IMG/VR virus record: IMGVR_UViG_3300027749_005140
Span: 1-64,000 of that record
Origin: a virus
Taxonomy: Duplodnaviria > Heunggongvirae > Uroviricota > Caudoviricetes
DNA length: 64,000 nucleotides
Reading direction: 5' to 3' (one strand)
Under the pieces are notes generated by a model. The model was given only the letters and a program-made list of their open reading frames with translations. It did no database searches and was not told where the DNA came from. This document shows, piece after piece, positions 2,423 through 63,102 of this stretch; position 1 is the first letter of the stretch, and every line of letters begins with the position of its first letter. The position numbers and the translations under genes were made by a program.

Positions 2423-4321
2423 ATGGTAGAACAGATTTTGGGCTATTGGCCCGTACTTTTAACGCTCGTATGTATCGTTATGTACAAATTCATTTTTCGT
2501 GTATTTTTTGGACTAGTCATTGTTCCTGAGGACAAGGTTGGTTTAGTAACGAAAAAATTCGTTCTTTTTGGAGACAATAAAGAACTTAGTGGTGATAGAA
2601 TCATCGCAGTAAACGGTGAAGCAGGTTTACAAGCTAAAATGCTTTCTCCTGGTTTACATTGGTGGATGTGGCCTTGGCAGTACTCTGTTGATATGCAGGC
2701 ATTCATCGTTATCCCAGAAGGACATATTGGATTAGTTTCTTCTAAAGATGGTAGAGTTCCTAAAACTGGACGTATCTTAGGACGTAGAGTTGAATGTGAT
2801 AATTTCCAAGATGCGGTAGCTTTCCTTAATAACGAAGGACAAAAAGGACGTCAGTCTGCTTATATCACGAATGGTACTTATAAAATCAACACTCACTTAT
2901 TTGAAGTGTCTGCAGTTAAACAAGTAAGTGTACAAGAGAATATGGTTGGTATTGTAACTACACTTGATGGTGAACCACTTAACACTGGTCAAATCGCAGG
3001 AGAACCTGTAACAGGACACAATAACTTCCAAGACTTTGATACATTCTTATCTGAGGGTGGTAATAGAGGTTTACAACAACAAGTAATTCTTGCGGGTTCT
3101 TATAACTTAAACCCTTGGGCAGTACAAGTTGAAGAGGTTCAAATGACTGAAATTCCTATTGGTAATGTTGGTGTTGTTATTTCTTATGTTGGTGCTGATG
3201 GTGTTGACTTAACTGGTGCTAACTTCAAACACGGTAACTTAGTATCTAAAGGACAAAAAGGTGTTTGGGCTGAACCACTTGGACCTGGTAAGTATGCAAT
3301 CAACAGATATACAAATCGTATTGAAGTTGTACCTACTACTAACTTAGTTCTTAACTGGGCAAATGCTAGAACAGAGTCTCACAACTTAGACAAGGGATTG
3401 AGTACGATTACAGTACGTTCTAAAGATGGTTTCCCATTCAACTTAGACGTTTCTCAAATCATTCACATTCCAATGACAGAAGCACCAAAAGTAATCGCTC
3501 GTTTCGGTTCTATGTTAAACCTTGTATCACAAGTATTAGAACCAACAATTGGTAACTACTTCCGTAACTCTGCACAAGATTCAGACGTTATTGCTTTCTT
3601 ATCTACTCGTCAGATTAGACAAGATGCAGCTAAAGCTTCTATCTCTGCAGTACTTGAAGAGTATAATGTTCACGCAGTAGATACCCTAATTGGAGACATT
3701 ACTCCACCAGAGTCTTTGATGAAAACTCTTACTGACCGTAAGATTGCAGAAGAGCAACAAGTGACTTACGAGACACAGAAAAAAGCTCAAGTTCAAAGAC
3801 AAACTCTTGAAAAAGAAACTGCTATTGCAGATATGCAAGGTGAGTTAGTAAAAGCTGACCAAGGTGTTCAAATCTCTGAGAGATTGGCAGACTCTGCAGT
3901 AAAAGACGCAACTGGTAAAGCTCGTTCAGTAAAAATTGCAGCAGAAGCTAACGCCGAATCTACAACATTGAATGCTAAAGCAGAAGCTACCAGAAAAACT
4001 CTTATTGGAGATGCTGAAGCTAACGCTATCTTAGCAGTAGGTAAATCGACTGCAGAATCTTACAGATTAGCTGTTGATGCAATGGGTCAAGATAACTTCA
4101 CGACTTATAAAGTAACAGAAGAAATCGGTAAAGGTAATGTGAAAATTATGCCAGACTTACTTATCAACGGTGGTGGTCAAGGTGGAAATGGTTCATTAGA
4201 TGGACTACTTGGAGTTCAAATCATGAATATGATGGGTAAAGGTTTTAAAAATCTTGAGACAACAGAAATTCCTGCTGAAGTGGTAGTAACAACTACCGAA
4301 GATAAAAAAGGAAAAAAATAA
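2423..4321 (+). CDS. SPFH/band-7 flotillin-like membrane protein
   Basis: N-terminal TM helix, SPFH-like core, long Ala/Glu/Lys-rich coiled-coil C-terminus typical of flotillin/YqiK; terminator follows. Confidence 0.6.
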   Translation: MVEQILGYWPVLLTLVCIVMYKFIFRVFFGLVIVPEDKVGLVTKKFVLFGDNKELSGDRIIAVNGEAGLQAKMLSPGLHWWMWPWQYSVDMQAFIVIPEGHIGLVSSKDGRVPKTGRILGRRVECDNFQDAVAFLNNEGQKGRQSAYITNGTYKINTHLFEVSAVKQVSVQENMVGIVTTLDGEPLNTGQIAGEPVTGHNNFQDFDTFLSEGGNRGLQQQVILAGSYNLNPWAVQVEEVQMTEIPIGNVGVVISYVGADGVDLTGANFKHGNLVSKGQKGVWAEPLGPGKYAINRYTNRIEVVPTTNLVLNWANARTESHNLDKGLSTITVRSKDGFPFNLDVSQIIHIPMTEAPKVIARFGSMLNLVSQVLEPTIGNYFRNSAQDSDVIAFLSTRQIRQDAAKASISAVLEEYNVHAVDTLIGDITPPESLMKTLTDRKIAEEQQVTYETQKKAQVQRQTLEKETAIADMQGELVKADQGVQISERLADSAVKDATGKARSVKIAAEANAESTTLNAKAEATRKTLIGDAEANAILAVGKSTAESYRLAVDAMGQDNFTTYKVTEEIGKGNVKIMPDLLINGGGQGGNGSLDGLLGVQIMNMMGKGFKNLETTEIPAEVVVTTTEDKKGKK

Positions 4322-4398: not shown

Positions 4399-5145
4399 AT
4401 GTACAATAAAATATATGACTTCTGTAAAGTAAGAAATGAAGGAACTATCTATGATAATAATTCACAGACACCTCCTCCAAGAGTTCAATTTTTAATGGAA
4501 CTTTTAGATTCGGAAGGTATTAAATATGAATTAGATAAGTTTTATACTTCTGAAGTTACCGGATATAATCTTATTCTACAGGGAACATCAAATAGGATGG
4601 TTGTTGCACATCATGATGTAAGTAATCCTAACATAGATAATGCAAATGATAATAGTGCGTCAGTAATCAATGCAATAATGATTAAGAAGCTTTTACCAAC
4701 AATGAATGTAATTCTATTAGATGGTGAAGAAGTTGGGGGTGTAGGCTCTAATAGAGCTTCAGAACTAATCAATAATGGTAAGTTTGGTGATATAGAATGG
4801 GTACTTAATTTAGAGTTAAGTGGTAAAGGTGGTAAACACTTTTTCATCGGAGATTATCCAGGACCTTTAACAGATCACATTAAAAATATTTTTGATTGTC
4901 CAATAGTTCGAACACCTTTTAATGACTCAGTTACATTTAGAAGAAATGGAATTGATTCAGTAGTTATAAATCCATTACCTCCTGTTTTAGAAGGTAAAAC
5001 AAATGTTAAATGGAATGAAGATACATATTTAGATTACTCTATGTTATTTAATTGTCATTCATCAAAAGACACGATTGCAACAATTGATCCAACAGATATG
5101 AAAGAATTTGTTGAAGATGTTGTTTTAAAAATATTAACATATTAA
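4399..5145 (+). CDS. M28-family zinc peptidase-like protein
   Basis: VVAHHDV (H-x-D), DNSASV (Asp), LDGEEVGGVGS (EE-x-G-x-GS) resemble the M28 aminopeptidase metal-ligand motifs. Confidence 0.45.
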   Translation: MYNKIYDFCKVRNEGTIYDNNSQTPPPRVQFLMELLDSEGIKYELDKFYTSEVTGYNLILQGTSNRMVVAHHDVSNPNIDNANDNSASVINAIMIKKLLPTMNVILLDGEEVGGVGSNRASELINNGKFGDIEWVLNLELSGKGGKHFFIGDYPGPLTDHIKNIFDCPIVRTPFNDSVTFRRNGIDSVVINPLPPVLEGKTNVKWNEDTYLDYSMLFNCHSSKDTIATIDPTDMKEFVEDVVLKILTY

Positions 5146-17867: not shown

Positions 17868-17947
17868 TTTATGATTTTTGATTTTTTAGTATATATTAAA
17901 TTGTCAGTTTTCTTTAATGGTTTATTTGTTATTTAAAATAAATTTTG

Positions 17948-17955
17948 TATATTTG
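17948..17955 (+). promoter_or_regulatory. Bacteroidetes-type -7 promoter box TAnnTTTG
   Basis: tatatttg 17 nt upstream of the ligase start codon. Confidence 0.45.
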
Positions 17956-17971
17956 TAGAAATAAATTATTT

Positions 17972-19807
17972 ATGATAGATAAAATAGTAGCAAAATTAGA
18001 AGAAGCAAATGAAGCTTACAGAACTGGTAATGCAATCATCTCCGATAAAGATTATGATGAGATGGTCGATTTACTGTTTTCATATGACCCAGAGAATGAA
18101 TTTTTCTCAAAAGTAGGTATTGAAATTCTTGATGAAACAAGAAAGTCAAAATTACCTATTGATATGGCATCTATGAATAAAATTAAAACCATTGAAGACA
18201 TACATACATGGTTAAGATTAAAAGGTATCAATCCGAATACCGAAATTGTATGTACTCCAAAATATGACGGACTTTCTTTATGTCATGACGAAATCAATAC
18301 AAACACCTGGACTAGAGGTGATGGTGAATTCGGCCAGAAATCCGATGAACACTACAAACTAATACAAAATCACTTATCTTTAAAAGGTGATGTATTTACA
18401 TATACTTATGGTGAAGTTATCATGCCTAAACAAGTTTTCTTAGACAAATACTCATTAGAGTTCGCAAATCCAAGAAATTTAGTTGCCGGTTTACTTAACT
18501 CAAAAGAAGTAACAGAACCATTAAAAGACTTACAATTCATTAAATACGGTGCAATACCAAATGAAGGATTTAACTTTAAAAACAAGTCAGACATTTTAGA
18601 TATGTTAAACTCTGGCCAAGAAGTTAAAGTAAATTATCATTTATTTATTGCGAAAGATATTACAGAAGACTTATTAGTAGAGCTATTCAAAAGATGGTCT
18701 ACCGACTATGAAATCGATGGTATTATTCTAGAAGTAAATGATCTTAAACTACAAGCAAGTTTAGGTCGTGAGACTTCATCTAACAATCCTTGTTATGCAA
18801 GAGCATTTAAACACGATAGTTTTGAACAAAAAGCAGAAGCGACAGTATTAGGTATTTCTTGGAATATCTCTAAACACGGTCTCTTAAAACCTGTTTTACA
18901 TATTACTCCAATTAAATTAGATGGAGTTACTGTTTCTAACGTAACTGGTAACAATGCTAAATTCGTAAGAGATATGGGTTTAGGAATTGGTGCGAAAGTT
19001 GTAGTTAAAAGAAGTGGTATGGTTATTCCTCTAATTGTAGAAGTATTACAAACGGTTGACTTTGTTATGCCAGTTGTTGAAGGTACTGAAATTGATTGGA
19101 ATGAGGCAGGTATTGAGCTGATTACTTTAACTGAAACTGACGATCAAAAGATAAGACAAAATATTGCTTTCTTTGAAATCTTAGAAGCAGACAATGTGTC
19201 AGAAGGTATCATCACTCAATTATGGGATGCTGGTTATAAAACTATCGAAGACATTTTAAATGTTACTACTACACAATTAGAGAGTATTGACAGATTTGGT
19301 AAAAGAAAGGCTCAGATTGTTTATAACTCAATTCAAAAATCAGTCACTGATGTTCAGTTATCTAAACTACAACACGCTACAGGTTTGTTCAGAGGATTAG
19401 GTAGTAAGAAGTTAGCTTTATTAGAACACTTTACAACTAAACCTACAATCGATCAAGTTATGGAGATTGAAGGATTTGCTGAGATTTCTGCAAAAGTTTT
19501 TGTGGATAACTACGATAATTTCTTTACCTTTGTAGGAAATCTTCCTATAACGATTGCTAAAAAAATAGAATCAGTTAAAGTTGGTACAGATTTAGATGGT
19601 AAATCATTTGTATTCACTGGAGTTCGTAGAAAAGATTTAGAAGAAGTAATTGAATCACGTGGTGGTAAAGTTGCAGGTTCTGTATCTAAAACTACAACTT
19701 ACTTGGTAATGAAAGCAAAAGGTTCAGGTTCAAGTAAAGAAACAAAAGCGGTTTCACTTGGAGTAGTAATATTGACAGTAGAAGAATTAGAAAACTTATT
19801 ATCATAA
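17972..19807 (+). CDS. ligA: NAD+-dependent DNA ligase
   Basis: N-terminal Ia domain (YRTGNAIISDKDYDEM), adenylation KYDG lysine motif, C-terminal BRCT. Start moved to the Met after the promoter box. Confidence 0.85.
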   Translation: MIDKIVAKLEEANEAYRTGNAIISDKDYDEMVDLLFSYDPENEFFSKVGIEILDETRKSKLPIDMASMNKIKTIEDIHTWLRLKGINPNTEIVCTPKYDGLSLCHDEINTNTWTRGDGEFGQKSDEHYKLIQNHLSLKGDVFTYTYGEVIMPKQVFLDKYSLEFANPRNLVAGLLNSKEVTEPLKDLQFIKYGAIPNEGFNFKNKSDILDMLNSGQEVKVNYHLFIAKDITEDLLVELFKRWSTDYEIDGIILEVNDLKLQASLGRETSSNNPCYARAFKHDSFEQKAEATVLGISWNISKHGLLKPVLHITPIKLDGVTVSNVTGNNAKFVRDMGLGIGAKVVVKRSGMVIPLIVEVLQTVDFVMPVVEGTEIDWNEAGIELITLTETDDQKIRQNIAFFEILEADNVSEGIITQLWDAGYKTIEDILNVTTTQLESIDRFGKRKAQIVYNSIQKSVTDVQLSKLQHATGLFRGLGSKKLALLEHFTTKPTIDQVMEIEGFAEISAKVFVDNYDNFFTFVGNLPITIAKKIESVKVGTDLDGKSFVFTGVRRKDLEEVIESRGGKVAGSVSKTTTYLVMKAKGSGSSKETKAVSLGVVILTVEELENLLS

Positions 19808-26837: not shown

Positions 26838-27242
26838 ATGAATTTAAAAGAACAAATTAGCAAAGACTACATGATAGCTTTCAAAGAAAGAAATATCGTA
26901 GCAAAAAACTTACTTTCTGTAGTGAAAGGAGAGATCCAAACTATTGAGAAGAATACTAGTGTTGATTGTCTTTCTGATGTAGAAGTAGTTAAAATTCTTA
27001 ATAAAACTGCAAAGTCTTTAAATGAGGTTATTTCATTAAATGGTGATGAAGAGTCTAAATTACAATTAAAAATTGTAGAAGCTTTTCTTCCAACACCTTT
27101 AACTAAAGAAGATATTGTTATTAAAGTAAATGAACTAGTTGCATCTGGAATTACAAATGTTGGTGGTATTATGAAAGAGTTTGCTACTTTACATGTAGAT
27201 AGAAAAGTTGTATCAGAAGTTATTAAAGAAGTATTAGCATAA
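26838..27242 (+). CDS. GatB/YqeY-domain protein
   Basis: Colinear with YqeY (MNLKEQI..DYM.AFKERN..LLSVVKGEI.....EAFLP..LT.EDI). Confidence 0.6.
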   Translation: MNLKEQISKDYMIAFKERNIVAKNLLSVVKGEIQTIEKNTSVDCLSDVEVVKILNKTAKSLNEVISLNGDEESKLQLKIVEAFLPTPLTKEDIVIKVNELVASGITNVGGIMKEFATLHVDRKVVSEVIKEVLA

Positions 27243-28498
27243 TGAAAAATATAGTAGAAGAATTACAATGGCGTGGGTTAGTACACGATATAATACCCGG
27301 AACGGAGGCTCAACTTTTAAAAGAAGCCACCACCTCTTATATTGGTTTTGATCCAACGTCAGATTCTCTACACATTGGGAGTTTAGTTCCCATCATTCTT
27401 CTAAAACATATGAAGAATTTTGGACACAATCCTATCGCACTTGTTGGTGGGGCTACTGGTATGATCGGTGACCCCTCTGGTAAGTCAAATGAAAGAAATC
27501 TATTAGACGAACAAGAACTTAATAAAAATGTTGAAGGTATCAAAAATACTTTGACCAGATTTTTAGGTGATACTCCTGTAGTAAATAACTACGATTGGAT
27601 GTCAAAGTTTAGTTTCATAGATTTTGTAAGAGACATCGGTAAAAGAATTACTATAAATTACATGTTATCAAAACAATCTGTAAAGAACCGTATCGAAGGT
27701 GAAGGAATGTCTTTCACTGAGTTTACTTACCAGTTGATTCAAGGATACGATTTCTACCATCTAAATAAAGAGTATAACTGTTTATTACAAATGGGTGGTT
27801 CAGATCAATGGGGTAACATTACAACAGGAACTGAACTAATTCATAAAATGAATCCTGGTAGGGAAGCTTTTGCTATGACATGTCCTTTACTAACTAAATC
27901 GGATGGTTCTAAGTTCGGAAAATCTGAAGGAGGTACAAACATATGGTTAGATAAAGATAAGACCTCTGTGTACAAGTTTTACCAATTTTGGATAAGTACT
28001 GATGATAATGATGCAGAGAGATATATTAAAATCTTTACATTTTTAGATAAAGAAACTATTGATAATTTAATAGAAGAGCATAATAAAGCAAAACACTTAT
28101 TTTTGTTACAAAAAACATTAGCAAGAGAAATAACTATTATGGTTCACGGTCAACAAGAGTTTGAAAAAGCAGTAGAAGCTTCTAACATTTTATTCAATGG
28201 TGGAGATTTAAACTTACTTGATGAAGAATTATTCTTAGATATATTTGGTGGAATACCACAAGCGAAAGTTCCTATGGAAGATATTCTTGCTGGTATTACA
28301 ATGACAGACATTCTATTTAAAACAGGTTTCTTAAAATCAAATAATGAAGCTAGAAGAGCTTTAAAAGAAAACTCTGTTGCAGTAAATAAAATAAAGAGAG
28401 AGGAAGACTACATAGTAACAGATGTTGATTTGATAAATGATAAGTTTATCATACTACAAAGAGGTAAGAAAAGTTACTTCTTAGTTGAAGCATCATAG
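27242..28498 (+). CDS. tyrS: tyrosyl-tRNA synthetase
   Basis: YIGFDPTSDSLHIGSLVPI (HIGH region, here HIGS), VGGATGMIGDPSGKS, KFGKS, C-terminal S4-like domain. Confidence 0.85.
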   Translation: MKNIVEELQWRGLVHDIIPGTEAQLLKEATTSYIGFDPTSDSLHIGSLVPIILLKHMKNFGHNPIALVGGATGMIGDPSGKSNERNLLDEQELNKNVEGIKNTLTRFLGDTPVVNNYDWMSKFSFIDFVRDIGKRITINYMLSKQSVKNRIEGEGMSFTEFTYQLIQGYDFYHLNKEYNCLLQMGGSDQWGNITTGTELIHKMNPGREAFAMTCPLLTKSDGSKFGKSEGGTNIWLDKDKTSVYKFYQFWISTDDNDAERYIKIFTFLDKETIDNLIEEHNKAKHLFLLQKTLAREITIMVHGQQEFEKAVEASNILFNGGDLNLLDEELFLDIFGGIPQAKVPMEDILAGITMTDILFKTGFLKSNNEARRALKENSVAVNKIKREEDYIVTDVDLINDKFIILQRGKKSYFLVEAS

Positions 28499-29955: not shown

Positions 29956-30044
29956 GGTGTTTGTAACCGGTAAAGGCAGCCGACCAGATTGTGAATCTGG
30001 AATGAATTAATTTTCTAATGCGGGTTCGAATCCCGTCTCACACC
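29956..30044 (+). tRNA. tRNA-His-like (anticodon GTG) with G-1 and expanded variable region
   Basis: Extra 5' G, anticodon loop ttgtgaa, T-arm gcggg ttcgaat cccgt; 19-nt variable region and two acceptor mismatches. Possibly degenerate. Confidence 0.35.
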
Positions 30045-30062
30045 CTAAATTCTCCCTCTAAA

Positions 30063-30195: not shown

Positions 30196-31233
30196 ATGAT
30201 AAGTTGTAAATTTTGTAAAAAAGTATATATAGGACGTAATAAAAATAAAGATGTTTTAATACATGAGTCCCATTGTATTCTAAATACAGATAGAGTACCA
30301 TATATATGTAATATATGTGATATGGAGTTTGATAAAAGACATTCTTTAATAGGACATAAAAGTCATTGCGGTAATTTAAAAGTTAGGAAAAAACGGATTA
30401 CAAAAGAGAAAGTAATTAAAATACACAAATGTAAATACTGTGATTCAATATTCGAAAATGGTTATAAATTGGGCGGACATGTATCACATTGTGATAGAGA
30501 TCCAGAATATGAAACTAAGAGGAGAAAAATGTGTGATAATATCTCTTTTCTTAATAAAGGAAAGAAATTATCAGATGAAACTAGAAAAAAAATATCAAAT
30601 AGTAGAAGAGAATATTTAAAAAATAATCCAGATAAAGTTCCCTATCTATTAAACCATAGTAGAAATGAATCATATCCTGAGAAATACTTTACTGATGTTT
30701 TTTTAGATAGAAATATTAGTGTAATAAAATCTTACAGAATTGGATTATATGAATTAGATTTTTGTATTTTAGATAAAAAAATAGATATAGAAATCGATGG
30801 TGGTCAACACTATTTAGATAATAAAATTATTGAAAGTGATAAAAGAAGAAATAAATATCTAGAAGATTTAGGTTGGGATATAATTAGAATAAAATGGAGT
30901 GATTATCAATTGTTGGATAAAGATTCTAAAAGAGAATTTATTGATAATATAATCTATTACATAAATGGTCTGGTAAAAACTAAACCAACATTTGAAATAT
31001 TAGATAATAAAAATTATTGTAAATGTGGTATAGAAATATACAAATGTTCTAAAATGTGTTCTAAATGTGATTCATTTAGACAAAGAAAAGTTGAAAGACC
31101 TTCATTAGAGCAAATTTTAAAAGATATAAAAGAAACAAACTATGTCTTGACCGGTAAAAAATATGGTGTTAGTGATAACACTATAAGAAAGTGGATAAGA
31201 CAATATAATGCGGATTTAGCTGAGACGGTTTAG
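30196..31233 (+). CDS. homing-endonuclease-like protein: 3x C2H2 zinc fingers + DUF559/Vsr-like PD-(D/E)xK nuclease + C-terminal HTH
   Basis: CxxC..HxxxH x3; YELDF..IDIEIDGGQHY..D.RR..L..GWDIIRIKW core; stop codon lies inside the D-loop of the following tRNA. Confidence 0.55.
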   Translation: MISCKFCKKVYIGRNKNKDVLIHESHCILNTDRVPYICNICDMEFDKRHSLIGHKSHCGNLKVRKKRITKEKVIKIHKCKYCDSIFENGYKLGGHVSHCDRDPEYETKRRKMCDNISFLNKGKKLSDETRKKISNSRREYLKNNPDKVPYLLNHSRNESYPEKYFTDVFLDRNISVIKSYRIGLYELDFCILDKKIDIEIDGGQHYLDNKIIESDKRRNKYLEDLGWDIIRIKWSDYQLLDKDSKREFIDNIIYYINGLVKTKPTFEILDNKNYCKCGIEIYKCSKMCSKCDSFRQRKVERPSLEQILKDIKETNYVLTGKKYGVSDNTIRKWIRQYNADLAETV

Positions 31234-38181: not shown

Positions 38182-38251
38182 CGCGTTAAAGTGTAAAGGT
38201 TGCATGAGACTTTCATAAGGTCTACGGGGTGGTTCGAATCCACGCTACGCT
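38182..38251 (+). tRNA. tRNA-like, anticodon CAT (poorly folding, possibly degenerate)
   Basis: Anticodon arm agact ttcataa ggtct and T-loop ggttcgaatcc; acceptor and D stems weak. Confidence 0.3.
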
Positions 38252-38298
38252 ACAAAAGAGATAGGTAACGATTTAGATACAAGTCTCAAAAAATATAT

Positions 38299-38371
38299 CG
38301 CGGGATAGAGCAGTAGGCAGCTCGTGTGGCTCATAACCATAAGGTCGGAGGTTCGAGTCCTTCTCCCGCTA
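38299..38371 (+). tRNA. tRNA-Met/Ile2-like (anticodon CAT) with C1:U72 mismatch
   Basis: Acceptor cgcggga/tcccgct, D-arm gagcagtaggcagctc, stem tgtgg/ccata, loop ctcataa, T-arm ggagg ttcgagt ccttc. Confidence 0.55.
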
Positions 38372-38420
38372 CTAAAAGAATAAAAAATTAAAAAAGATTT
38401 GGTGGTTTAAAAACTTATCG

Positions 38421-38428
38421 TATCTTTG
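38421..38428 (+). promoter_or_regulatory. -7 promoter box TAnnTTTG of leader/tRNA module 3
   Basis: tatctttg upstream of leader ORF 3. Confidence 0.45.
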
Positions 38429-38496
38429 TACTCACAAGATGAGAGTCACATAAGTGACTAGAAGAATTAAAAACAACAATTTAAAAAATAGAAAAA

Positions 38497-38598
38497 ATGA
38501 CAACAATTACTAACATAACAATAGCTATCGAAGCCATAGGCGGGTATGAAGCGGGGTATATTATACCATCGGTCAGAAGCGTTATGTCTATAAAGTAA
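38497..38598 (+). CDS. leader peptide 3 (33 aa), Ile/Thr/Gly/Glu/Tyr/Ala-rich
   Basis: MTTITNITIAIEAIGGYEAGYIIPSVRSVMSIK; resembles thr-operon leader; codons ATA, GAA, GGC/GGG, TAT, GCN match the downstream tRNAs. Confidence 0.45.
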   Translation: MTTITNITIAIEAIGGYEAGYIIPSVRSVMSIK

Positions 38599-38627
38599 TG
38601 AGTTGAAAAAAACATTATTATATAACA

Positions 38628-38667
38628 AACCCAATCTGACTTAAAAATCAGATTGGGTTTTTTTATT
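38628..38667 (+). terminator. rho-independent terminator/attenuator 3
   Basis: aacccaatctga cttaaaaa tcagattgggtt + tttttt. Confidence 0.7.
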
Positions 38668-38682
38668 GAATTAAAAGTACAA

Positions 38683-38767
38683 GGGAGTACGCCGGAGTTG
38701 GAGAGCCGGAGCGGTCTGTAACACCGTTGGCATTACGCCTGAGTAGGTTCGAGTCCTACTACTCTCA
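38683..38767 (+). tRNA. tRNA-Tyr (anticodon GTA), class II
   Basis: Acceptor gggagta/tactctc, stem gcggt/accgt, loop ctgtaac, variable arm, T-arm gtagg ttcgagt cctac. Confidence 0.6.
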
Positions 38768-38773
38768 CAAAAT

Positions 38774-38841
38774 AAAAGTGACTATGTGCGGGTCGAAAGA
38801 CTTGAAAAGCCAACCGAAATAGTCTAACGTGGTCACTTTTT
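38774..38841 (+). other. extended imperfect hairpin flanked by A-run and T-run
   Basis: aaaagtgactat ... atagtc taacgt ggtcactttttt; not a tRNA (no T-loop). Confidence 0.3.
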
Positions 38842-38848
38842 AGAATAT

Positions 38849-38921
38849 GGTGTATTCGTCTAGTGGTAAGGATTACGCTTTTTCAAAGCGGAGGACGTCG
38901 GTTCGAATCCGACATACACTA
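38849..38921 (+). tRNA. tRNA-Glu (anticodon TTC)
   Basis: Acceptor ggtgtat/atacact, D-arm tcgtctagtggtaaggat (Glu-like), loop ttttcaa, T-arm gtcgg ttcgaat ccgac. Confidence 0.5.
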
Positions 38922-38925
38922 CAAA

Positions 38926-38987
38926 TGTAAGTAGAGCTCCGGTGACTTCTACCTAACCGGGCATTGTGCTTGAGTAGAAGACTTACA
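38926..38987 (+). other. nested hairpin element between tRNA genes
   Basis: tgtaagt..cttctac..gtagaag..acttaca nested inverted repeats. Confidence 0.25.
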
Positions 38988-38991
38988 AAAT

Positions 38992-39066
38992 GCTGCTATC
39001 GTCTAACGGTAGGACAACATCTTCTCAAGGTGTGAGATACGGGTTCGATCCCCGTTAGCAGCACCA
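38992..39066 (+). tRNA. tRNA-Glu (anticodon CTC) with encoded CCA
   Basis: Perfect acceptor gctgcta/tagcagc, loop ttctcaa, T-arm acggg ttcgatc cccgt, followed by a cca. Confidence 0.55.
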
Positions 39067-39182
39067 AACAGATACTTGAGTGCAAGCAAGTTATAGTATC
39101 AGTCGTTAGGTCCTTGCAGACAGTGAACGGTGGTCCGAATGTCATTATTCGGTGGTGGATACCAGGCAACTCCATCATATAT

Positions 39183-39254
39183 GATCCGGTCTTCTAATGG
39201 TCAGGAAGCAAGGTTTTCATCCTTGTAATCAGGGTTCGATTCCCTGTCGGATTA
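39183..39254 (+). tRNA. tRNA-like, anticodon TTC (Glu-like; G1:U72 and G7:U66 wobbles)
   Basis: Acceptor gatccgg/tcggatt, stem caagg/ccttg, loop ttttcat, T-arm caggg ttcgatt ccctg. Confidence 0.4.
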
Positions 39255-39264
39255 CAAAAAAAAT

Positions 39265-39338
39265 TGGTAAGTAGCTTAGACGGTAGAAGCATCTGTCTTA
39301 TACACAGAAGATAGTGGGTTCGATACCCACCTTACCAA
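39265..39338 (+). tRNA. tRNA-Ile (anticodon TAT)
   Basis: Acceptor tggtaag/cttacca, stem tctgt/acaga, loop cttatac, T-arm gtggg ttcgata cccac. Confidence 0.55.
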
Positions 39339-39345
39339 CAAAATC

Positions 39346-39419
39346 GCGGGAGTCGTATAATGGCTCGATTATGCTGGCTTTCCACGTCAGAGACGAGGGT
39401 TCGATTCCCTTCTCCCGCA
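39346..39419 (+). tRNA. tRNA-Gly (anticodon TCC)
   Basis: Acceptor gcgggag/ctcccgc, stem ctggc/gtcag, loop tttccac, T-arm gaggg ttcgatt ccctt. Confidence 0.55.
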
Positions 39420-39428
39420 CCGCATAAT

Positions 39429-39502
39429 GCAAATGTATATCAATTGGTAGATAGTCTCGTTGCCAACGAGAAGGCTTGCGGGTTCGAGCCCCGTCATTTG
39501 CT
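39429..39502 (+). tRNA. tRNA-Gly (anticodon GCC)
   Basis: Acceptor gcaaatg/catttgc, stem tctcg/cgaga, loop ttgccaa. Confidence 0.6.
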
Positions 39503-39600
39503 CAGTAGAAGTGGTTTAAGTTATAGAAATCTCTATATCTAAGACGTTAGATGTAAATTTTTATACACCACTTTAATTATAAAGATAGTAGTAATATAAA

Positions 39601-39700
39601 GCGTTACTTCGTATTCAAACGACTATTATAGGTTCGAATCCTATTGTCCGCACAAATAATTAAATTGCGGATATAGTGTAATGGTAGCACAGTAAAATAC
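39601..39700 (+). other. two orphan tRNA halves: a 3' half (T-arm + acceptor 3') lying upstream of a 5' half (acceptor 5' + D-arm); their acceptor strands are mutually complementary
   Basis: ...ataggttcgaatcctat tgtccgc a (39628-39652) and gcggata ta gtgtaatggtagcac (39667-39690); tgtccgc pairs perfectly with gcggata. Confidence 0.25.
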
Positions 39701-39728
39701 GCTTAATAAACTTTCTCTATCTTATTTT

Positions 39729-39800
39729 GGGGCTATCGTATAATGGCTATTACACAGGGTTTGCAACTCTGATATTCCGGATCGTCCCCGGATAGCTCCA
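39729..39800 (+). tRNA. tRNA-Ala-like (anticodon TGC) with non-canonical T-loop
   Basis: Acceptor ggggcta/tagctcc (G3:U70 present), stem caggg/ctctg, loop tttgcaa, T-arm tccgg atcgtcc ccgga. Confidence 0.45.
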
Positions 39801-39977
39801 CAAAAAATAAAAAATAGATATGAAAACTAAAGAACAGTCGCTGGACGCATTTTAGTCACAGAAGAATATAAATCTTACTGTGACGGTAATAAAACAGAAA
39901 GAATTAAAAGATCATTAGTAAAAAATGGTTCACGTAATGATAGAAAATTACAAAAATATTCTGATAAATTTAACAAA

Positions 39978-40358
39978 ATGTTTGAGTTTTATTTCAAAAT
40001 TTACAGAAGTGGTTTAGTTAAATTCTGTGGTGATATTGTTAAGGTAGACTTTGATGTAAATGGTTCAGAAGGAAAATTTGCATTTAGAGAATATGATAAT
40101 GGTCGTTTTAAATTAATAACACCTATATCAAGACATCCTAATATACTTCAATCAGTAATTATTGGTAAAAAAGGTTGGGGATTATGGGTAAGTCAATGGA
40201 CTGATGGAATTGTTGACTGGTCATTCACAAAAGAAGAAATACTAAAAGAATTTGAATTAAGAGATATAGAAATACCAGAATCACTAATGATTGAATGGGA
40301 TAAATTGATCTTAAAAAGAAAAATTATACGAAATGAGAATTATATAAAATCTAAATAA
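39978..40358 (+). CDS. hypothetical protein
   Basis: ORF followed by a terminator. Confidence 0.3.
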   Translation: MFEFYFKIYRSGLVKFCGDIVKVDFDVNGSEGKFAFREYDNGRFKLITPISRHPNILQSVIIGKKGWGLWVSQWTDGIVDWSFTKEEILKEFELRDIEIPESLMIEWDKLILKRKIIRNENYIKSK

Positions 40359-40384
40359 TCCGAGAATATTCTCGGATTTTTTTA
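40357..40384 (+). terminator. rho-independent terminator
   Basis: aatccgagaatattctcggatt + tttttt. Confidence 0.7.
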
Positions 40385-40403
40385 TTATATTAAATTTTTT
40401 ACT

Positions 40404-54464: not shown

Positions 54465-56057
54465 ATGAGTTTACAAAGACAAATTACTCGAAAATTAGAA
54501 AGAGTCATTGCTGATAAAGATTGGACTTCTTTAGAAGGTATTCAAAAATACCTAACAAAAATTATTACAAAACCAGACAATTTAATTCTTTGTTCTGATG
54601 CTTACAAATACTCACACCATAAATTCTATGGTGATGAAATGACTAAGATGATTTCTTATATGGAATCTCGTGGTGGTAAATTCTCAGAAACTTTATTCTA
54701 TGGTTTACAAATCATTATCAAACAATACTTAGAAGGTATCGCTATTACCAAAGAAGAAGTAGATGAAGCAAATGATTACTTAGCTTCTAAACTAGGTGTG
54801 TTCGGTAGAGAAGATGTATTTGATCGTTCTAAGTTTGATTATATCGTTGATAAATATGATGGTAAACTTCCTATCAGTATTAAAGCTGTACCAGAAGGAA
54901 CCGTTGTAAATACAAAAAATGTACTTTTCATTATTGAAAGTTTAGATGAAAAATGTGCTTGGTTGACAAACTTCTTAGAAAGTATCTTACTTCAAGTTTG
55001 GTATCCAATTACTGTTGCAACCCTTTCAAGAGAAGTTAGAAAAATTGTAACTAATTCATTTTTAGATTGTACTTCTTATGATGATAAAACAATCAATTTC
55101 TTAGTTGATTTTGTTTTAAATGATTTTGGTTTCAGAGGTGTATCATCTGTACAATCAGCTAAAATTGGTGGGTCCGCACATCTTGTCAACTTCTTAGGTT
55201 CAGACACTGTAATCGCTTCTAAATTGATTAGAGACGTATATAATACTGAACGAATCTATGGGTTATCAATTCCTGCAACCGAACACTCTATTATGACGCT
55301 TAAAGGTAAAGAAGGAGAGTTAGAACTAATGACGAGAGTGTTAAAAACATTCCCTACTGGATTAGTAGCGTGTGTATCTGATTCATATAACATCTTTAGA
55401 GCTTGTTCTCAATACTGGGGAACTGAGTTGAGAGATTTAGTTCTTTCAAGACCTGCAACACCTGGAAATCAATTAGTTATTAGACCTGACTCTGGCCACG
55501 TTTTAAGAACATTGAAAGAGATTTTTGATATATTATTTGACAAGTTTGGATATACGGTAAATGAAAAAGGTTACAAAGTACTTCCACCACAAGTTAGAGT
55601 AATTCAAGGTGACGGTGTCAACCTAGAATCAATTGGTGAAATCTATACAATGTTAAAATCAGAAGGTATTTCTCCAGAGAACTTAGCATTGGGTATGGGT
55701 GGTAAATTATTACAAGCGGATATAAACCGTGATACAAATAACTTTGCAACTAAAGCTTGTTTCGCAGTGGTTGATGGTCAAGAAAGAAATGTAGTTAAAT
55801 CTCCTACAGAAATGGATGCAGATGGTAACATTATGAAATCTTTCAAAAAATCTAAACAAGGTCGTTTGAAACTTGTTAAGAATGATGATGGTACTTACAG
55901 AACTGTTACTTCAATGGATGCAGACTTTGATACTGTTAAAGACGAGTTAGTTGAAGTATTTAGAATGGGAGAAATTACTAAAGAGTGGAACTTTGATGAG
56001 ATTAGACAAAGAGCTGCAGTTTTAGTAGAACAAGAAACAGAAGAATTGATAGCATAA
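54465..56057 (+). CDS. nadV: nicotinamide phosphoribosyltransferase
   Basis: LCSDAYKYSHHKFYG and GMGGKLLQ..NRDT motifs, ~530 aa. Confidence 0.85.
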   Translation: MSLQRQITRKLERVIADKDWTSLEGIQKYLTKIITKPDNLILCSDAYKYSHHKFYGDEMTKMISYMESRGGKFSETLFYGLQIIIKQYLEGIAITKEEVDEANDYLASKLGVFGREDVFDRSKFDYIVDKYDGKLPISIKAVPEGTVVNTKNVLFIIESLDEKCAWLTNFLESILLQVWYPITVATLSREVRKIVTNSFLDCTSYDDKTINFLVDFVLNDFGFRGVSSVQSAKIGGSAHLVNFLGSDTVIASKLIRDVYNTERIYGLSIPATEHSIMTLKGKEGELELMTRVLKTFPTGLVACVSDSYNIFRACSQYWGTELRDLVLSRPATPGNQLVIRPDSGHVLRTLKEIFDILFDKFGYTVNEKGYKVLPPQVRVIQGDGVNLESIGEIYTMLKSEGISPENLALGMGGKLLQADINRDTNNFATKACFAVVDGQERNVVKSPTEMDADGNIMKSFKKSKQGRLKLVKNDDGTYRTVTSMDADFDTVKDELVEVFRMGEITKEWNFDEIRQRAAVLVEQETEELIA

Positions 56058-62551: not shown

Positions 62552-62639
62552 TACTGGGTTGCCATAGCCAGGTCGAATGGTTCGGACTGTTAATCCGATG
62601 AGCATCGCTCCACCGTGGGTTCGAATCCCACCCCAGTAG
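62552..62639 (+). tRNA. tRNA-like, anticodon GTT, with class-II-length variable hairpin (atypical)
   Basis: Perfect acceptor tactggg/cccagta, stem tcgga/tccga, loop ctgttaa, variable hairpin gagc atc gctc, T-arm gtggg ttcgaat cccac. Confidence 0.35.
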
Positions 62640-62647
62640 CAATACAT

Positions 62648-63007: not shown

Positions 63008-63095
63008 GGCATAGTGTCTGAGTGGTCGAAAGATGCGGTCTGCAAAACCGTAATGATTAAGTTCATCATCGTAGGTTCAAATCCTACCTATGCTT
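63008..63095 (+). tRNA. tRNA-Cys (anticodon GCA) with expanded variable hairpin
   Basis: Acceptor ggcatag/ctatgct, stem gcggt/accgt, loop ctgcaaa, variable atga ttaagt tcat, T-arm gtagg ttcaaat cctac. Confidence 0.5.
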
Positions 63096-63102
63096 CAATA
63101 AT

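What the first reader, a model, noticed from the sequence alone, without database searches (positions are those of the whole stretch)
39601..39700. Apparent permuted or split tRNA: 3' half upstream of a complementary 5' half
At 39628-39652 there is a T-arm plus acceptor 3' strand (atagg ttcgaat cctat tgtccgc a) with no plausible 5' partner upstream. At 39667-39690 there is an acceptor 5' strand plus D-arm (gcggata ta gtgt aatggta gcac) with no 3' partner downstream. tgtccgc and gcggata are perfectly complementary (7/7). This is the arrangement of circularly permuted tRNA genes (3' half then 5' half), or else the scar of a rearrangement that split one tRNA.
Basis: seen in the sequence. Interest (0 to 1): 0.5.

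Follow-up and report, generated by a model that had tools for sequence, protein, structure and literature searches.

The report
tRNA-mimic Y RNA in phage tRNA array
The "back-to-front tRNA" is real and conserved, but it is a YrlA-type Y RNA, a known class of small RNA that mimics a circularly permuted tRNA and normally partners with the Ro60 protein; here it sits unannotated inside a huge phage's tRNA gene cluster, far from any Ro60 gene.

Summary
At 39628-39652 there is a T-arm plus a 3' acceptor strand, and at 39667-39690 a 5' acceptor strand plus a D-arm. The two strands pair 7/7, as 6 Watson-Crick pairs plus one G.U. It is neither a scar nor a decoding permuted tRNA. The complete element is about 142 nt (39582-39723, + strand): a terminal stem, a small "V" hairpin, the T-arm, a closed 7-bp acceptor-like hairpin and the D-arm. 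This is the module order published for YrlA, the tRNA-like bacterial and phage Y RNA.

- **Conservation:** three relatives carry it between flanking tRNA genes. All 38 pairs are kept and 9 show compensatory changes.
- **Independent model:** a covariance model trained only on elements next to Ro60-like genes, with the window excluded, scores it 67.6 bits. Tandem-tRNA background in the window peaks at 39.2 bits.
- **Ro60 link in relatives:** 16 of 39 related IMG/VR elements have a same-strand Ro60/TROVE or DUF2828 gene within 39-4693 nt.
- **Ro60 in this lineage:** the window has no such gene. The closest complete relative has one TROVE gene, 127 kb from its element.
- **Differences from typical YrlA:** no adjacent Ro60 gene, no strict GNCGAA motif, no Rfam YrlA hit, and a long acceptor loop that resembles a tRNA trailer.

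Verdict: a new member of a known kind, of moderate interest.

The parts
39582..39723 (+). Whole YrlA-like element (about 142 nt): terminal stem enclosing the V hairpin, T-arm, acceptor-like hairpin and D-arm
   Evidence: MFE fold, RNAalifold consensus of 4 relatives and covariance-model hits
39582..39591 (+). Outer terminal helix, 5' strand (AAGAUAG-U-AG). It lies within the invariant motif AGAUAGUAGUAAU (39583-39595), the presumed protein (Ro60) binding strand
   Evidence: Pairs with 39715-39723. Invariant in window, L139, L141 and L001 while the other helices vary. It occupies the position of the GNCGAAN0-1G motif of YrlA (PMC4201824)
39599..39608 (+). Middle and proximal terminal helices, 5' strand (AAGCGU + UACU). 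Contains the YUAY motif UUAC at 39604-39607
   Evidence: Pairs with 39691-39694 and 39699-39704. The middle helix covaries: AAGCGU/ACGCUU, GAGUGU/ACACUC, GAGAAGUGU/ACACUUCUC. YUAY is a conserved YrlA feature
39609..39622 (+). V hairpin: 4-bp stem UCGU/ACGA with 6-nt loop AUUCAA, anticodon-arm-like but not conserved
   Evidence: The loop is AUUCAA, AUUCAA, AUUUCCA and CUGCAAU in the four clade members. The stem covaries across the family
39623..39627 (+). Variable-loop-like linker CUAUU. U39627 is the position-48 equivalent, the Levitt partner of A39681
   Evidence: Read from the sequence; same A15:U48-type pair as S. Typhimurium YrlA U32:A72
39628..39644 (+). T-arm: AUAGG UUCGAAU CCUAU
   Evidence: Stem is 100% paired, with 3 of 5 pairs covarying over 27 sequences
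39645..39651 (+). Acceptor-like stem, 3' strand UGUCCGC
   Evidence: Pairs 7/7 with 39667-39673. All 7 pairs covary across the family
39652..39666 (+). 15-nt acceptor loop ACAAAUAAUUAAAUU. It begins with a discriminator-like A, then C-AAA, like the 3' trailers of this phage's real tRNA genes
   Evidence: nearly all 29 window tRNAs are followed by C-AAA. N-CAAAU is kept in all four clade members
39667..39675 (+). Acceptor-like stem, 5' strand GCGGAUA, plus the U8-A9-equivalent UA
   Evidence: The UA linker is conserved in YrlA
39676..39690 (+). D-arm: GUGU AAUGGUA GCAC. The loop is identical to that of S. Typhimurium YrlA
   Evidence: YrlA construct sequence quoted
39691..39704 (+). Proximal and middle terminal helices, 3' strand (AGUA, bulge AAAU, ACGCUU)
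39715..39723 (+). Outer terminal helix, 3' strand (CU + CUAUCUU)
   Evidence: Invariant in 4 relatives; the 3' strand was not part of any search pattern
39429..39503 (+). Upstream tRNA-Gly(GCC) (context). In relatives L001 and L141 the upstream tRNA ends 1-2 nt before the element
39729..39801 (+). Downstream tRNA-Ala(UGC), 5 nt after the element. RNase P cleavage at its 5' end would set the element's 3' end (inferred)

Best explanation
39582-39723 (+) encodes a YrlA-class Y RNA, a non-coding RNA whose core is a tRNA mimic wired as a circularly permuted tRNA.

**Shown**
- The RNA's 5' and 3' ends pair into a long terminal stem that takes the place of the anticodon stem.
- From that stem emerge a small V hairpin, a canonical T-arm, a 7-bp acceptor-like stem closed by a loop, and a canonical D-arm.
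- All the nucleotides that build the tRNA elbow are present: U8, A14, A15:U48, G18-G19, and the U54-U55-C56...A58 equivalents.
- Architecture, covariation, family linkage to Ro60-like genes and tRNA flanking are all demonstrated here.

**Inferred**
- The element is co-transcribed with the tRNA array and cut out by the tRNA-processing enzymes that release its neighbours. RNase P at the 5' end of tRNA-Ala would set its 3' end.
- The invariant 5' strand of the terminal stem (AGAUAGUAGUAAU) is the docking site for a phage Ro60/TROVE protein encoded elsewhere in the genome.
- The tRNA-like module acts as in other Y RNAs, recruiting or gating a tRNA-binding or RNA-decay/repair effector onto Ro60 during infection.
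- The acceptor stem is 7 bp and its 15-nt loop looks like this phage's tRNA trailer plus leader. The loop is therefore probably opened by RNase P and the new 3' end given CCA, as shown for M. smegmatis YrlA. That would leave a two-piece tRNA-like particle.
For: 1. **Module order and motifs match YrlA.** The published order is 5' stem, YUAY, V, T, AS, UA, D, 3' stem (Chen et al. 2014, PMC4201824). The D loop AAUGGUA and the UA linker are identical to the crystallised S. Typhimurium YrlA.
2. **Model R2 finds the window element.** R2 was trained only on elements lying next to Ro60-like genes, plus the mycobacteriophage Rizal site that Rfam RF02553 YrlA also hits. Window and L001 were excluded. 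It scores the window element 67.6 bits, against 39.2 bits for the best tandem-tRNA false positive in the window.
3. **Model R1 finds known sites.** R1 recovers the Rizal YrlA site just upstream of the Ro-like gp223, and two sites beside the Ro gene of Rhodococcus phage Trina.
4. **Ro60-like neighbours.** 16 of 39 related IMG/VR elements have a TROVE/vWA_Ro60 or DUF2828/DUF7788 gene in the fetched locus. All 16 are on the same strand, 39-4693 nt away.
5. **Family covariation (27 sequences).** 94.9% of cells are paired and 15 of 21 pairs have double changes, versus 42-56% paired when partners are slid.
6. **Clade covariation (4 sequences).** Over 38 pairs, 100% are paired and 9 are compensatory. 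RNAalifold recovers the same structure unaided.
7. **A Ro60 gene exists in the lineage.** The closest complete relative, LR745206.1, is syntenic with the window. It encodes exactly one TROVE protein (HMM 1.7e-64, Pfam TROVE 1e-16) and exactly one such element.
8. **tRNA flanking and trailer signature**.
9. **No promoter or terminator** between the flanking tRNAs.
Against: - No TROVE or DUF2828 ORF exists anywhere in the 64-kb window.
- In LR745206.1 the Ro60 gene is 127 kb from the element. Published YrlA genes lie within 4 kb of Ro60.
- The strict GNCGAAN0-1G motif is absent.
- Rfam RF02553 YrlA gives no hit even at E<=10.
- The IMG/VR relatives were recruited with a pattern taken from the window's own T and D loops. 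Part of the model score is therefore circular, and the 7-bp acceptor pairing was a selection criterion.
- No expression, processing or binding data exist for this element.
Confidence: 0.75

Rival explanations
1. Ro60-independent tRNA mimic. The element has been uncoupled from Ro60 and works on its own. RNase P opens the acceptor loop and CCA is added, leaving a two-piece tRNA-like molecule. That molecule acts as a decoy or sponge for tRNA-binding proteins (host anticodon nucleases, modification enzymes, synthetases, EF-Tu), or is even charged.
For: - No Ro60-like gene lies within 39 kb upstream or 24 kb downstream, and the distance is 127 kb in the relative.
- The strict Ro60 motif is missing.
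- The acceptor stem is 7 bp, and the 13-16-nt loop carries this phage's tRNA trailer signature N-C-AAA.
- M. smegmatis YrlA, with a 7-bp stem, is cut by RNase P and receives CCA.
- The element is embedded in a tRNA array.
Against: - The terminal stem and its 5' strand are invariant across four relatives while every other helix drifts. This points to a sequence-specific protein partner on that stem.
- The relative's genome keeps one Ro60 gene and one element.
- The acceptor-stem sequence and the discriminator base are not conserved (A, U, U, U), so no consistent synthetase identity is apparent.
Confidence: 0.17
2. True circularly permuted tRNA gene, as in Cyanidioschyzon or Thermofilum. The terminal stem would be excised, the ends ligated into a circle, and the acceptor loop opened to give a normal decoding tRNA.
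For: - The 3'-half-then-5'-half order is correct.
- When the terminal stem is deleted in silico and the acceptor loop opened, ARAGORN accepts a cloverleaf for every family member.
- The V hairpin often has a 7-nt loop with U at position 2.
Against: - In the window the V loop is 6 nt (AUUCAA). ARAGORN then gives only aberrant or inconsistent anticodons.
- 'Anticodons' differ among near-identical relatives: GCA in L001, UUC in L141, and GUA/GGA/GAA/ACG/GCG within one subgroup.
- There is no 3-4-3 bulge-helix-bulge at the stem base.
- The stem that would be discarded is the most conserved part.
- The tRNA splicing endonuclease has not been reported in bacteria (stated in 10.1101/312249).
- The family is linked to Ro60-like genes.
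Confidence: 0.03
3. Decayed remains of two tandem tRNA genes, or a rearrangement scar with no function.
For: - It lies in a tRNA array.
- The acceptor loop looks like an inter-tRNA spacer. This fits the proposed evolutionary origin of YrlA from a dimeric tRNA transcript.
Against: - Four relatives at about 76-95% identity keep all 38 base pairs, with 9 compensatory pairs, including helices formed between the two 'outer' flanks.
- 40 distinct sequences share the layout.
- The fold z-score is -3.3.
Confidence: 0.01
4. Two-piece (permuted) tmRNA.
For: Permuted tmRNA genes also place the T-arm and 3' acceptor strand upstream of the 5' acceptor strand.
Against: - ARAGORN, which detects permuted tmRNA, reports none.
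- The element is only about 142 nt, with no tag reading frame or pseudoknots.
- It has a true D-stem, which tmRNA lacks.
- There is no tmRNA hit in Rfam at E<=10.
Confidence: 0.005

Closest known systems
YrlA (Y RNA-like A), the tRNA-like Y RNAs of bacteria and mycobacteriophages (Chen et al. 2014, PMC4201824; structure PDB 6CU1, Wang et al. 2018, bioRxiv 10.1101/312249; Rfam RF02553)
   Same: - Same module order: terminal stem, YUAY, V, T-arm, closed acceptor-like stem, UA, D-arm.
- Identical D loop AAUGGUA, a tRNA-type T loop and the A15:U48-type Levitt pair.
- A conserved motif sits in the 5' strand of the terminal stem.
- It lies next to tRNA genes.
- A 7-bp acceptor stem, like the M. smegmatis YrlA that RNase P cleaves.
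- A model trained on Ro60-adjacent members detects it at 67.6 bits.
   Different: - It is not within 4 kb of a Ro60 gene: none in the 64-kb window, and 127 kb away in the relative.
- The 5'-strand motif is GAUAGUAGUAA, not GNCGAAN0-1G.
- The acceptor loop is long (15 nt) and resembles a tRNA trailer.
- The Rfam RF02553 model does not detect it.
- The host is a low-GC phage syntenic with a 635-kb phage genome (LR745206.1), rather than an actinophage or bacterium.
Circularly permuted tRNA genes of Cyanidioschyzon merolae and other algae, and of Thermofilum pendens (Soma 2007; Maruyama 2010; Chan 2011, as cited in 10.1101/312249)
   Same: The 3' half precedes the 5' half. The acceptor stem is initially closed by a loop. 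The transcript's two ends pair into a helix.
   Different: - No bulge-helix-bulge motif.
- No conserved 7-nt anticodon loop.
- The terminal helix is conserved in sequence rather than being a disposable processing signal.
- It occurs in a phage of bacteria, where the splicing endonuclease is unknown.
Two-piece (permuted) tmRNA of alpha-proteobacteria and cyanobacteria
   Same: Permuted order of the acceptor strands, and a T-arm. If RNase P opens the loop, a two-piece RNA held together by helices would result.
   Different: No mRNA-like tag, no pseudoknots, a real D-arm, and less than half the size of a tmRNA.
Metazoan and Deinococcus Y RNAs (Yrn1)
   Same: A terminal stem formed by the 5' and 3' ends carries the Ro60 site. 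A variable effector module sits at the other end.
   Different: The canonical GGUCCGA/UUGACU bulged helix is absent. The effector module here is a complete tRNA mimic.

Membership tests
YrlA-class tRNA-like Y RNA | Module order: 5' strand of terminal stem, V region, T stem-loop, acceptor-like stem-loop, D stem-loop, 3' strand of terminal stem | tested here: met
   MFE fold, RNAalifold and pair counts, compared with the description in PMC4201824
YrlA-class tRNA-like Y RNA | Conserved tRNA-core nucleotides: T loop UUCGA-type, D loop with GG (AAUGGUA), UA between AS and D, YUAY before V, pyrimidine at the last V position forming the Levitt pair | tested here: met
   Sequence at 39604-39607 (UUAC), 39627 (U), 39633-39639, 39674-39675 (UA) and 39680-39686, against the YrlA sequence and text
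YrlA-class tRNA-like Y RNA | Recognised by a covariance model of bona fide (Ro60-adjacent) members | tested here: met
   R2, trained without window and L001, gives 67.6 bits and E about 4e-12, against 39.2 bits for the best tandem-tRNA hit. Caveat: most training sequences were recruited with the window's own T and D loop words
YrlA-class tRNA-like Y RNA | GNCGAAN0-1G motif near the 5' end (putative Ro60 contact) | tested here: not met
   A regex finds no match upstream of the V hairpin. Only 2 of 42 family sequences match strictly. The window instead has an invariant GAUAGUAGUAA at the equivalent place, resembling GAUAGCGUAGGAU of the Ro60-adjacent L060
YrlA-class tRNA-like Y RNA | Encoded within about 4 kb of a Ro60/TROVE gene on the same strand | tested here: not met
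   No TROVE/DUF2828 ORF in the window by Pfam, profile HMMs, phmmer or tblastn. In LR745206.1 the only TROVE gene is 127 kb away. The feature is met for 16 of 39 related elements
YrlA-class tRNA-like Y RNA | Ro60 gene present in the same genome | tested here: inconclusive
   Present in the syntenic relative LR745206.1 at 241072-242535. The window's own genome beyond 64 kb could not be read
YrlA-class tRNA-like Y RNA | Physical binding to Ro60/Rsr; tRNA-type modifications (pseudouridine 55, dihydrouridine) | not testable with these tools
   Needs immunoprecipitation and modification mapping
Rfam RF02553 YrlA | Score at or above the gathering threshold (69 bits) | tested here: not met
   No hit at E<=10 over 39480-39830. 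The model reaches only 36.1 bits on the mycobacteriophage Rizal site as well, so it is narrow
Circularly permuted tRNA gene (algal/archaeal type) | 3' half upstream of 5' half with complementary acceptor strands | tested here: met
Circularly permuted tRNA gene (algal/archaeal type) | Bulge-helix-bulge (3-4-3) motif where the transcript ends pair | tested here: not met
   The terminal stem consists of a 7+2 bp helix, a 3 bp helix, a 6 bp helix and a 4 bp helix. They are separated by a 1-nt bulge, asymmetric internal loops and a 4-nt bulge, with no BHB
Circularly permuted tRNA gene (algal/archaeal type) | Rejoining yields a tRNA with a conserved, functional 7-nt anticodon loop | tested here: not met
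   The window loop is 6 nt. 'Anticodons' vary among close relatives
Circularly permuted tRNA gene (algal/archaeal type) | Splicing endonuclease and ligase available; circular intermediate | not testable with these tools
   Needs RNA-seq or RT-PCR across the junction. The endonuclease is unreported in bacteria
Two-piece tmRNA | Tag reading frame, resume codon and pseudoknots | tested here: not met
   ARAGORN finds no tmRNA, Rfam has no tmRNA hit, and 142 nt leaves no room

The most novel reading that the evidence does not exclude
In this huge-phage lineage the Y RNA has been captured by the tRNA array and detached from its Ro60 gene. It may be processed like a tRNA at both its outer ends and its acceptor loop (RNase P, 3' trimming, CCA addition). 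That would give a two-piece, CCA-tailed tRNA-like particle acting as a decoy for host tRNA-targeting defence nucleases or for tRNA-binding enzymes, possibly without Ro60, or that can even be aminoacylated.
Probability: 0.18. Interest if true: 0.7.

Novelty: new member of a known kind. Interest (0 to 1): 0.45.

Why it matters
**Annotation gap.** YrlA-type Y RNAs are almost never annotated, and the Rfam model misses nearly all of those found here. In tRNA-rich phage genomes they get read as broken, pseudo or permuted tRNAs. Two examples are the 'tRNA-OTHER' pseudogene in phage Trina and an opposite-strand hypothetical CDS in a FelixO1-like coliphage.

**Wider distribution.** The element type is recognised here in a phage syntenic with a 635-kb phage genome, in many IMG/VR phages, and beside the very widespread DUF2828 'RNA-binding protein' of phages. 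Ro60/Y-RNA particles may therefore be a much more common part of phage RNA biology (tRNA repair, decay or counter-defence) than the actinophage examples suggested.

**A test case.** This locus is the less usual configuration. It is embedded in a tRNA array, lies 127 kb from Ro60 in the complete relative, and has a tRNA-like 7-bp acceptor stem with a trailer-like loop. That makes it a good case for asking whether some Y RNAs are opened and CCA-tailed like tRNAs.

Tried and rejected
- **BLAST of 38200-40400 against the phage collection.** Megablast gave only one short hit outside the element. The 'distant' mode was needed to find the homologous locus in LR745206.1.
- **Exact 25-mer of the T-arm plus acceptor strand in IMG/VR.** No hits.
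- **Broad T-loop...D-loop pattern.** It returned mostly ordinary tandem tRNAs and had to be filtered by acceptor complementarity. The pairing count was bimodal: 44 hits with 6-7 pairs, the rest peaking at 2-4.
- **Rfam.** No family covers the element at E<=10 or covers its relatives at gathering thresholds.
- **Ro60 in the window.** Searched with Pfam on 30 ORFs, two profile HMMs, phmmer with the Lak and LR745206 proteins, and tblastn. Nothing found.
- **Lak-B2 Ro-like locus.** No element within +/-6 kb.
- **Lak Ro-like protein as a probe for LR745206.1.** Uninformative. The whole 635-kb record was therefore fetched and scanned.
- **Pairing between acceptor loop 39656-39664 and upstream 39572-39580.** Considered as a pseudoknot, but it is absent in L001 and L141, so it is treated as chance.
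- **Literature.** The supplement of Chen et al. 2014 and the 2020 Annual Review were not available.
- **Rejected readings.** Permuted decoding tRNA, tmRNA and scar were rejected for the reasons given under the rival explanations.
Full report
**The observation**

The window is a low-GC (about 28%) phage segment carrying 29 tRNA genes, all on the + strand. The finding lies in the 225-bp gap between tRNA-Gly(GCC) 39429-39503 and tRNA-Ala(UGC) 39729-39801.

ATAGG-TTCGAAT-CCTAT-TGTCCGC-A occupies 39628-39652, and GCGGATA-TA-GTGT-AATGGTA-GCAC occupies 39667-39690. The two acceptor strands pair at all seven positions, but one pair is G.U, so 'perfectly complementary' is slightly overstated.

ARAGORN calls no tRNA or tmRNA there. 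Rfam gives only a 13.9-bit partial tRNA match to the T-arm and no other family at E<=10.

**It is conserved, not a scar**

The only related record in the phage collection is LR745206.1, a 634,780-bp uncultured phage. It carries the same arrangement at the same place, between its tRNA-Gly(GCC) and tRNA-Ala(UGC). The changes are compensatory:
- T stem: AUAGG/CCUAU becomes CCAGG/CCUGG.
- Acceptor stem: UGUCCGC/GCGGAUA becomes CACCGGC/GUCGGUG.
- The sequences outside the two 'halves' also pair with each other: AAGAUAG...CUAUCUU, and AAGCGU/ACGCUU becoming GAGAAGUGU/ACACUUCUC.

Two further close relatives were found in IMG/VR, L139 and L141.
- Over the four sequences, all 38 proposed pairs are standard pairs in every sequence.
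- Nine pairs have changes on both sides.
- When partners are slid by 1-3 columns, only 31-50% of cells pair.
- RNAalifold, given only the alignment, predicts the same structure: 41 pairs, 11 of them compensatory.
- The window sequence alone folds into this structure as its minimum-energy fold (-32.5 kcal/mol, z = -3.3).

**Anatomy of the element**

The element spans 39582-39723 on the + strand.
- **Terminal stem.** It has three parts. The outer part is 39582-39591 with 39715-39723. The middle part is 39599-39604 with 39699-39704. The proximal part is 39605-39608 with 39691-39694.
- **V hairpin.** 39609-39622, a 4-bp stem with a 6-nt loop.
- **Linker.** Five nt, ending in U39627.
- **T-arm.** 39628-39644.
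- **Acceptor-like stem.** Seven bp, 39645-39651 with 39667-39673, closed by the 15-nt loop 39652-39666.
- **UA dinucleotide.** 39674-39675.
- **D-arm.** 39676-39690.
- **tRNA elbow.** Every nucleotide that builds it is present: U8, A14, A15:U48, G18-G19, and the T54/psi55/C56/A58 equivalents.

**A large family that travels with Ro60-like genes**

A pattern scan of IMG/VR for the T loop followed within 25-50 nt by the D loop returned 119 loci.
- Acceptor-strand complementarity at the fixed tRNA positions was bimodal. Of 124 pattern matches in those loci, L001 and the window, 44 had 6-7 of 7 pairs, and the rest peaked at 2-4.
- The 44 hits reduce to 40 distinct sequences, including the window's own and L001's. 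All share the same upstream hairpin and flank pairing.
- Over 27 representatives, 94.9% of cells are paired. Fifteen of 21 pairs have double changes, and the covariation score is 0.71, against 0.10-0.19 for slid partners.
- The acceptor stem was a selection criterion. The T stem (100% paired, 3 pairs covarying) and the V stem (86% paired, 5 pairs covarying) were not.

The large same-strand ORFs next to these elements were tested with Pfam. Six of eight are Ro60 proteins (TROVE and/or vWA_Ro60), and a seventh is DUF2828/DUF7788.

Profile HMMs of both types were then run on all loci. Sixteen of the 39 other distinct elements have such a gene in the DNA fetched. All 16 are on the element's strand, 39-4693 nt away, and 14 are downstream. 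Most of the others have less than 5 kb of downstream flank.

**Identification as YrlA**

The architecture matches the published description of YrlA, the tRNA-like Y RNA bound by bacterial Ro60 (Rsr).
- Chen et al. 2014 describe a stem formed by the 5' and 3' ends, with a putative Ro60 motif in its 5' strand.
- They then describe a conserved YUAY, a variable 'V' stem-loop, a T stem-loop and an acceptor-like stem-loop.
- A UA dinucleotide and a D stem-loop complete the order.
- The genes lie within 4 kb of Ro60 on the same strand, in more than 250 bacteria and 22 phages (PMC4201824).

The crystallised S. Typhimurium YrlA module (sequence quoted) has the same D loop AAUGGUA, the same UA linker and the same A:U Levitt pair. 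[quoted passage not shown] They also report that M. smegmatis YrlA, which has a 7-bp stem, is cleaved by RNase P and receives CCA.

Two covariance models support the assignment.
- **R1** (window included) finds the expected site in Mycobacterium phage Rizal, just upstream of the Ro-like gp223 (43.4 bits). Rfam's own YrlA model RF02553 also hits that site, at a sub-threshold 36.1 bits.
- **R1** also finds two sites beside the Ro gene of Rhodococcus phage Trina (87.5 and 43.1 bits).
- **R2** was trained only on Ro60-adjacent elements plus the Rizal and Trina sites, with window and L001 left out. It scores the window element 67.6 bits (E about 4e-12) and L001 75.2 bits.
- Tandem tRNAs, the false positives that Chen et al. 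warned of, reach 39.2 bits in the window and 43.5 bits in LR745206.1.

One caveat applies. Most training sequences were recruited with the window's own T-loop and D-loop words, which inflates the score. The hit in Escherichia phage AYO145A (70.2 bits) has a different T loop and was not recruited that way.

**What does not fit a textbook YrlA**

- **No Ro60 in the window.** There is no TROVE or DUF2828 ORF anywhere in the 64 kb.
- **Ro60 is distant in the relative.** The whole of LR745206.1 was fetched and scanned.
  - It has exactly one TROVE protein, at 241072-242535 (HMM 1.7e-64; Pfam TROVE 1.1e-16).
  - It has exactly one element, 127 kb away, and no other R2 hit genome-wide.
  - The window is syntenic with LR745206.1 312-381 kb. 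A Ro60 gene, if this phage has one, would therefore lie outside the window.
- **No strict motif.** GNCGAAN0-1G is absent. In its place the four clade members share an invariant AGAUAGUAGUAAU and an invariant outer helix, while every other helix drifts. L139 and L141 were found with a pattern containing 11 of those bases, but L001 and the 3' strand were not.
- **A long, trailer-like acceptor loop.** It is 13-16 nt in this clade, against 4-9 nt in most others. It begins N-C-A-A-A-U, which is the signature that follows the discriminator base of nearly all 29 real tRNA genes in the window.
- **Rfam RF02553 does not detect it**.

**Testing the permuted-tRNA reading directly**

I deleted the terminal stem in silico, joined the D-arm side to the V hairpin, and opened the acceptor loop. 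ARAGORN then accepts a cloverleaf for every family member.

The would-be anticodon is not constrained, however.
- It is GCA in L001 and UUC in L141.
- The 6-nt loop in the window and L139 gives only aberrant calls.
- Within one closely related subgroup it is GUA, GGA, GAA, ACG or GCG.

There is also no bulge-helix-bulge motif. The helix that such a pathway would discard is the most conserved part. A decoding permuted tRNA is therefore very unlikely.

**Likely mechanism**

Shown:
- The structure and its covariation.
- The family link to Ro60-like genes.
- Tight flanking by tRNAs. In L001 and L141 the upstream tRNA ends 1-2 nt before the element. In all four clade members a tRNA starts 3-5 nt after it.
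- No promoter-like or terminator-like site between the flanking tRNAs.

Inferred:
- The element is co-transcribed with the tRNA array.
- It is released by the nucleases that mature its neighbours.
- Its terminal stem is bound by the phage Ro60.
- Its tRNA-like module engages a tRNA-binding effector, as proposed for other YrlA RNAs.
- Its acceptor loop is probably opened by RNase P and CCA-tailed, as in M. smegmatis.

The main rival is that, in this lineage, the RNA acts without Ro60 as a tRNA decoy.

**Verdict**

It is a new, unannotated member of the known YrlA class in an unusual genomic setting.

Noticed in passing
Family-wide; window 39609-39622; A2/A3 columns 11-27: The 'V' hairpin looks like an anticodon arm: a 4-5 bp stem, usually a 7-nt loop, U at loop position 2 invariant in the Ro60-adjacent set, and A common at positions 6-7. 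Re-permuted in silico, every member is called a cloverleaf tRNA, but with anticodons that differ among close relatives.
   Followed up: partly
L143 9470-9561 (NC_028825.1, about 27249-27340), Escherichia phage vB_EcoM_AYO145A: A 70-bit YrlA-like element sits in the tRNA array of a FelixO1-like coliphage, 1 kb downstream of its DUF2828 'RNA-binding protein' gp046. It lies under an annotated opposite-strand hypothetical CDS (gp131), which is probably spurious.
   Followed up: partly
Phage collection: DUF2828/DUF7788 Ro-like proteins occur in 711 phage records, including FelixO1-like, Listeria, Staphylococcus, Campylobacter, Vibrio, Bacillus and Lak megaphages. In IMG/VR loci they lie 1-5 kb downstream of YrlA-like elements. 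No paper in the held library links DUF2828 with Y RNA.
   Followed up: partly
L005, L048, L088, L021, L036 and about 20 similar IMG/VR loci: One large subgroup has an invariant acceptor loop UUGGUC and an upstream UUGACCA that could pair with it. The pair of motifs recalls the GGUC/UUGAC Ro60 site of metazoan Y RNAs.
   Followed up: no
L122 4832-4925 (Rhodococcus phage Trina, NC_042040.1): A second YrlA-like element lies directly upstream of the Ro gene, inside a feature annotated 'tRNA-OTHER' pseudogene (4682-4890). The first element (3708-3803) is unannotated.
   Followed up: partly
L142 7720-7828 and 4613-4722 (- strand): Two further YrlA-like hits (53 and 38 bits) have the GUUACUUCGA motif and much longer acceptor stem-loops.
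   Followed up: no
Window, all 29 tRNA genes: Almost every tRNA gene is followed by C-A-A-A after the discriminator base, and CCA is essentially never encoded. The element's acceptor loop starts the same way.
   Followed up: partly
Window 39572-39580 and 39656-39664: UUUAAUUAU upstream of the element is perfectly complementary to AUAAUUAAA in the acceptor loop (9 bp). The pairing is kept in the near-identical L139 but is impossible in L001 and L141, where a tRNA abuts the element. It is probably chance in AT-rich sequence.
   Followed up: partly
Window 39504-39581: A 78-nt spacer between tRNA-Gly and the element is shared with L139 but absent from L001 and L141. It has no ORF, no promoter-like site and no known function.
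   Followed up: no
L046 3326-3789: A GOLLD RNA (216 bits), containing a tRNA, lies about 1.1 kb upstream of the YrlA-like element of that IMG/VR phage.
   Followed up: no
Window 27242-28498; 54465-56057; 17945-19807; 30196-31233: The window encodes a class I Tyr/Trp-type aminoacyl-tRNA synthetase, a nicotinamide phosphoribosyltransferase and an NAD-dependent DNA ligase. It also has a NUMOD3/DUF559 endonuclease-like ORF inside the first tRNA cluster.
   Followed up: no
Window 29957-30045, 62552-62640, 63008-63096: Three ARAGORN calls (His, Asn, Cys) are 89 nt long, unusually long for these isoacceptors. They may contain insertions or be mis-delimited.
   Followed up: no
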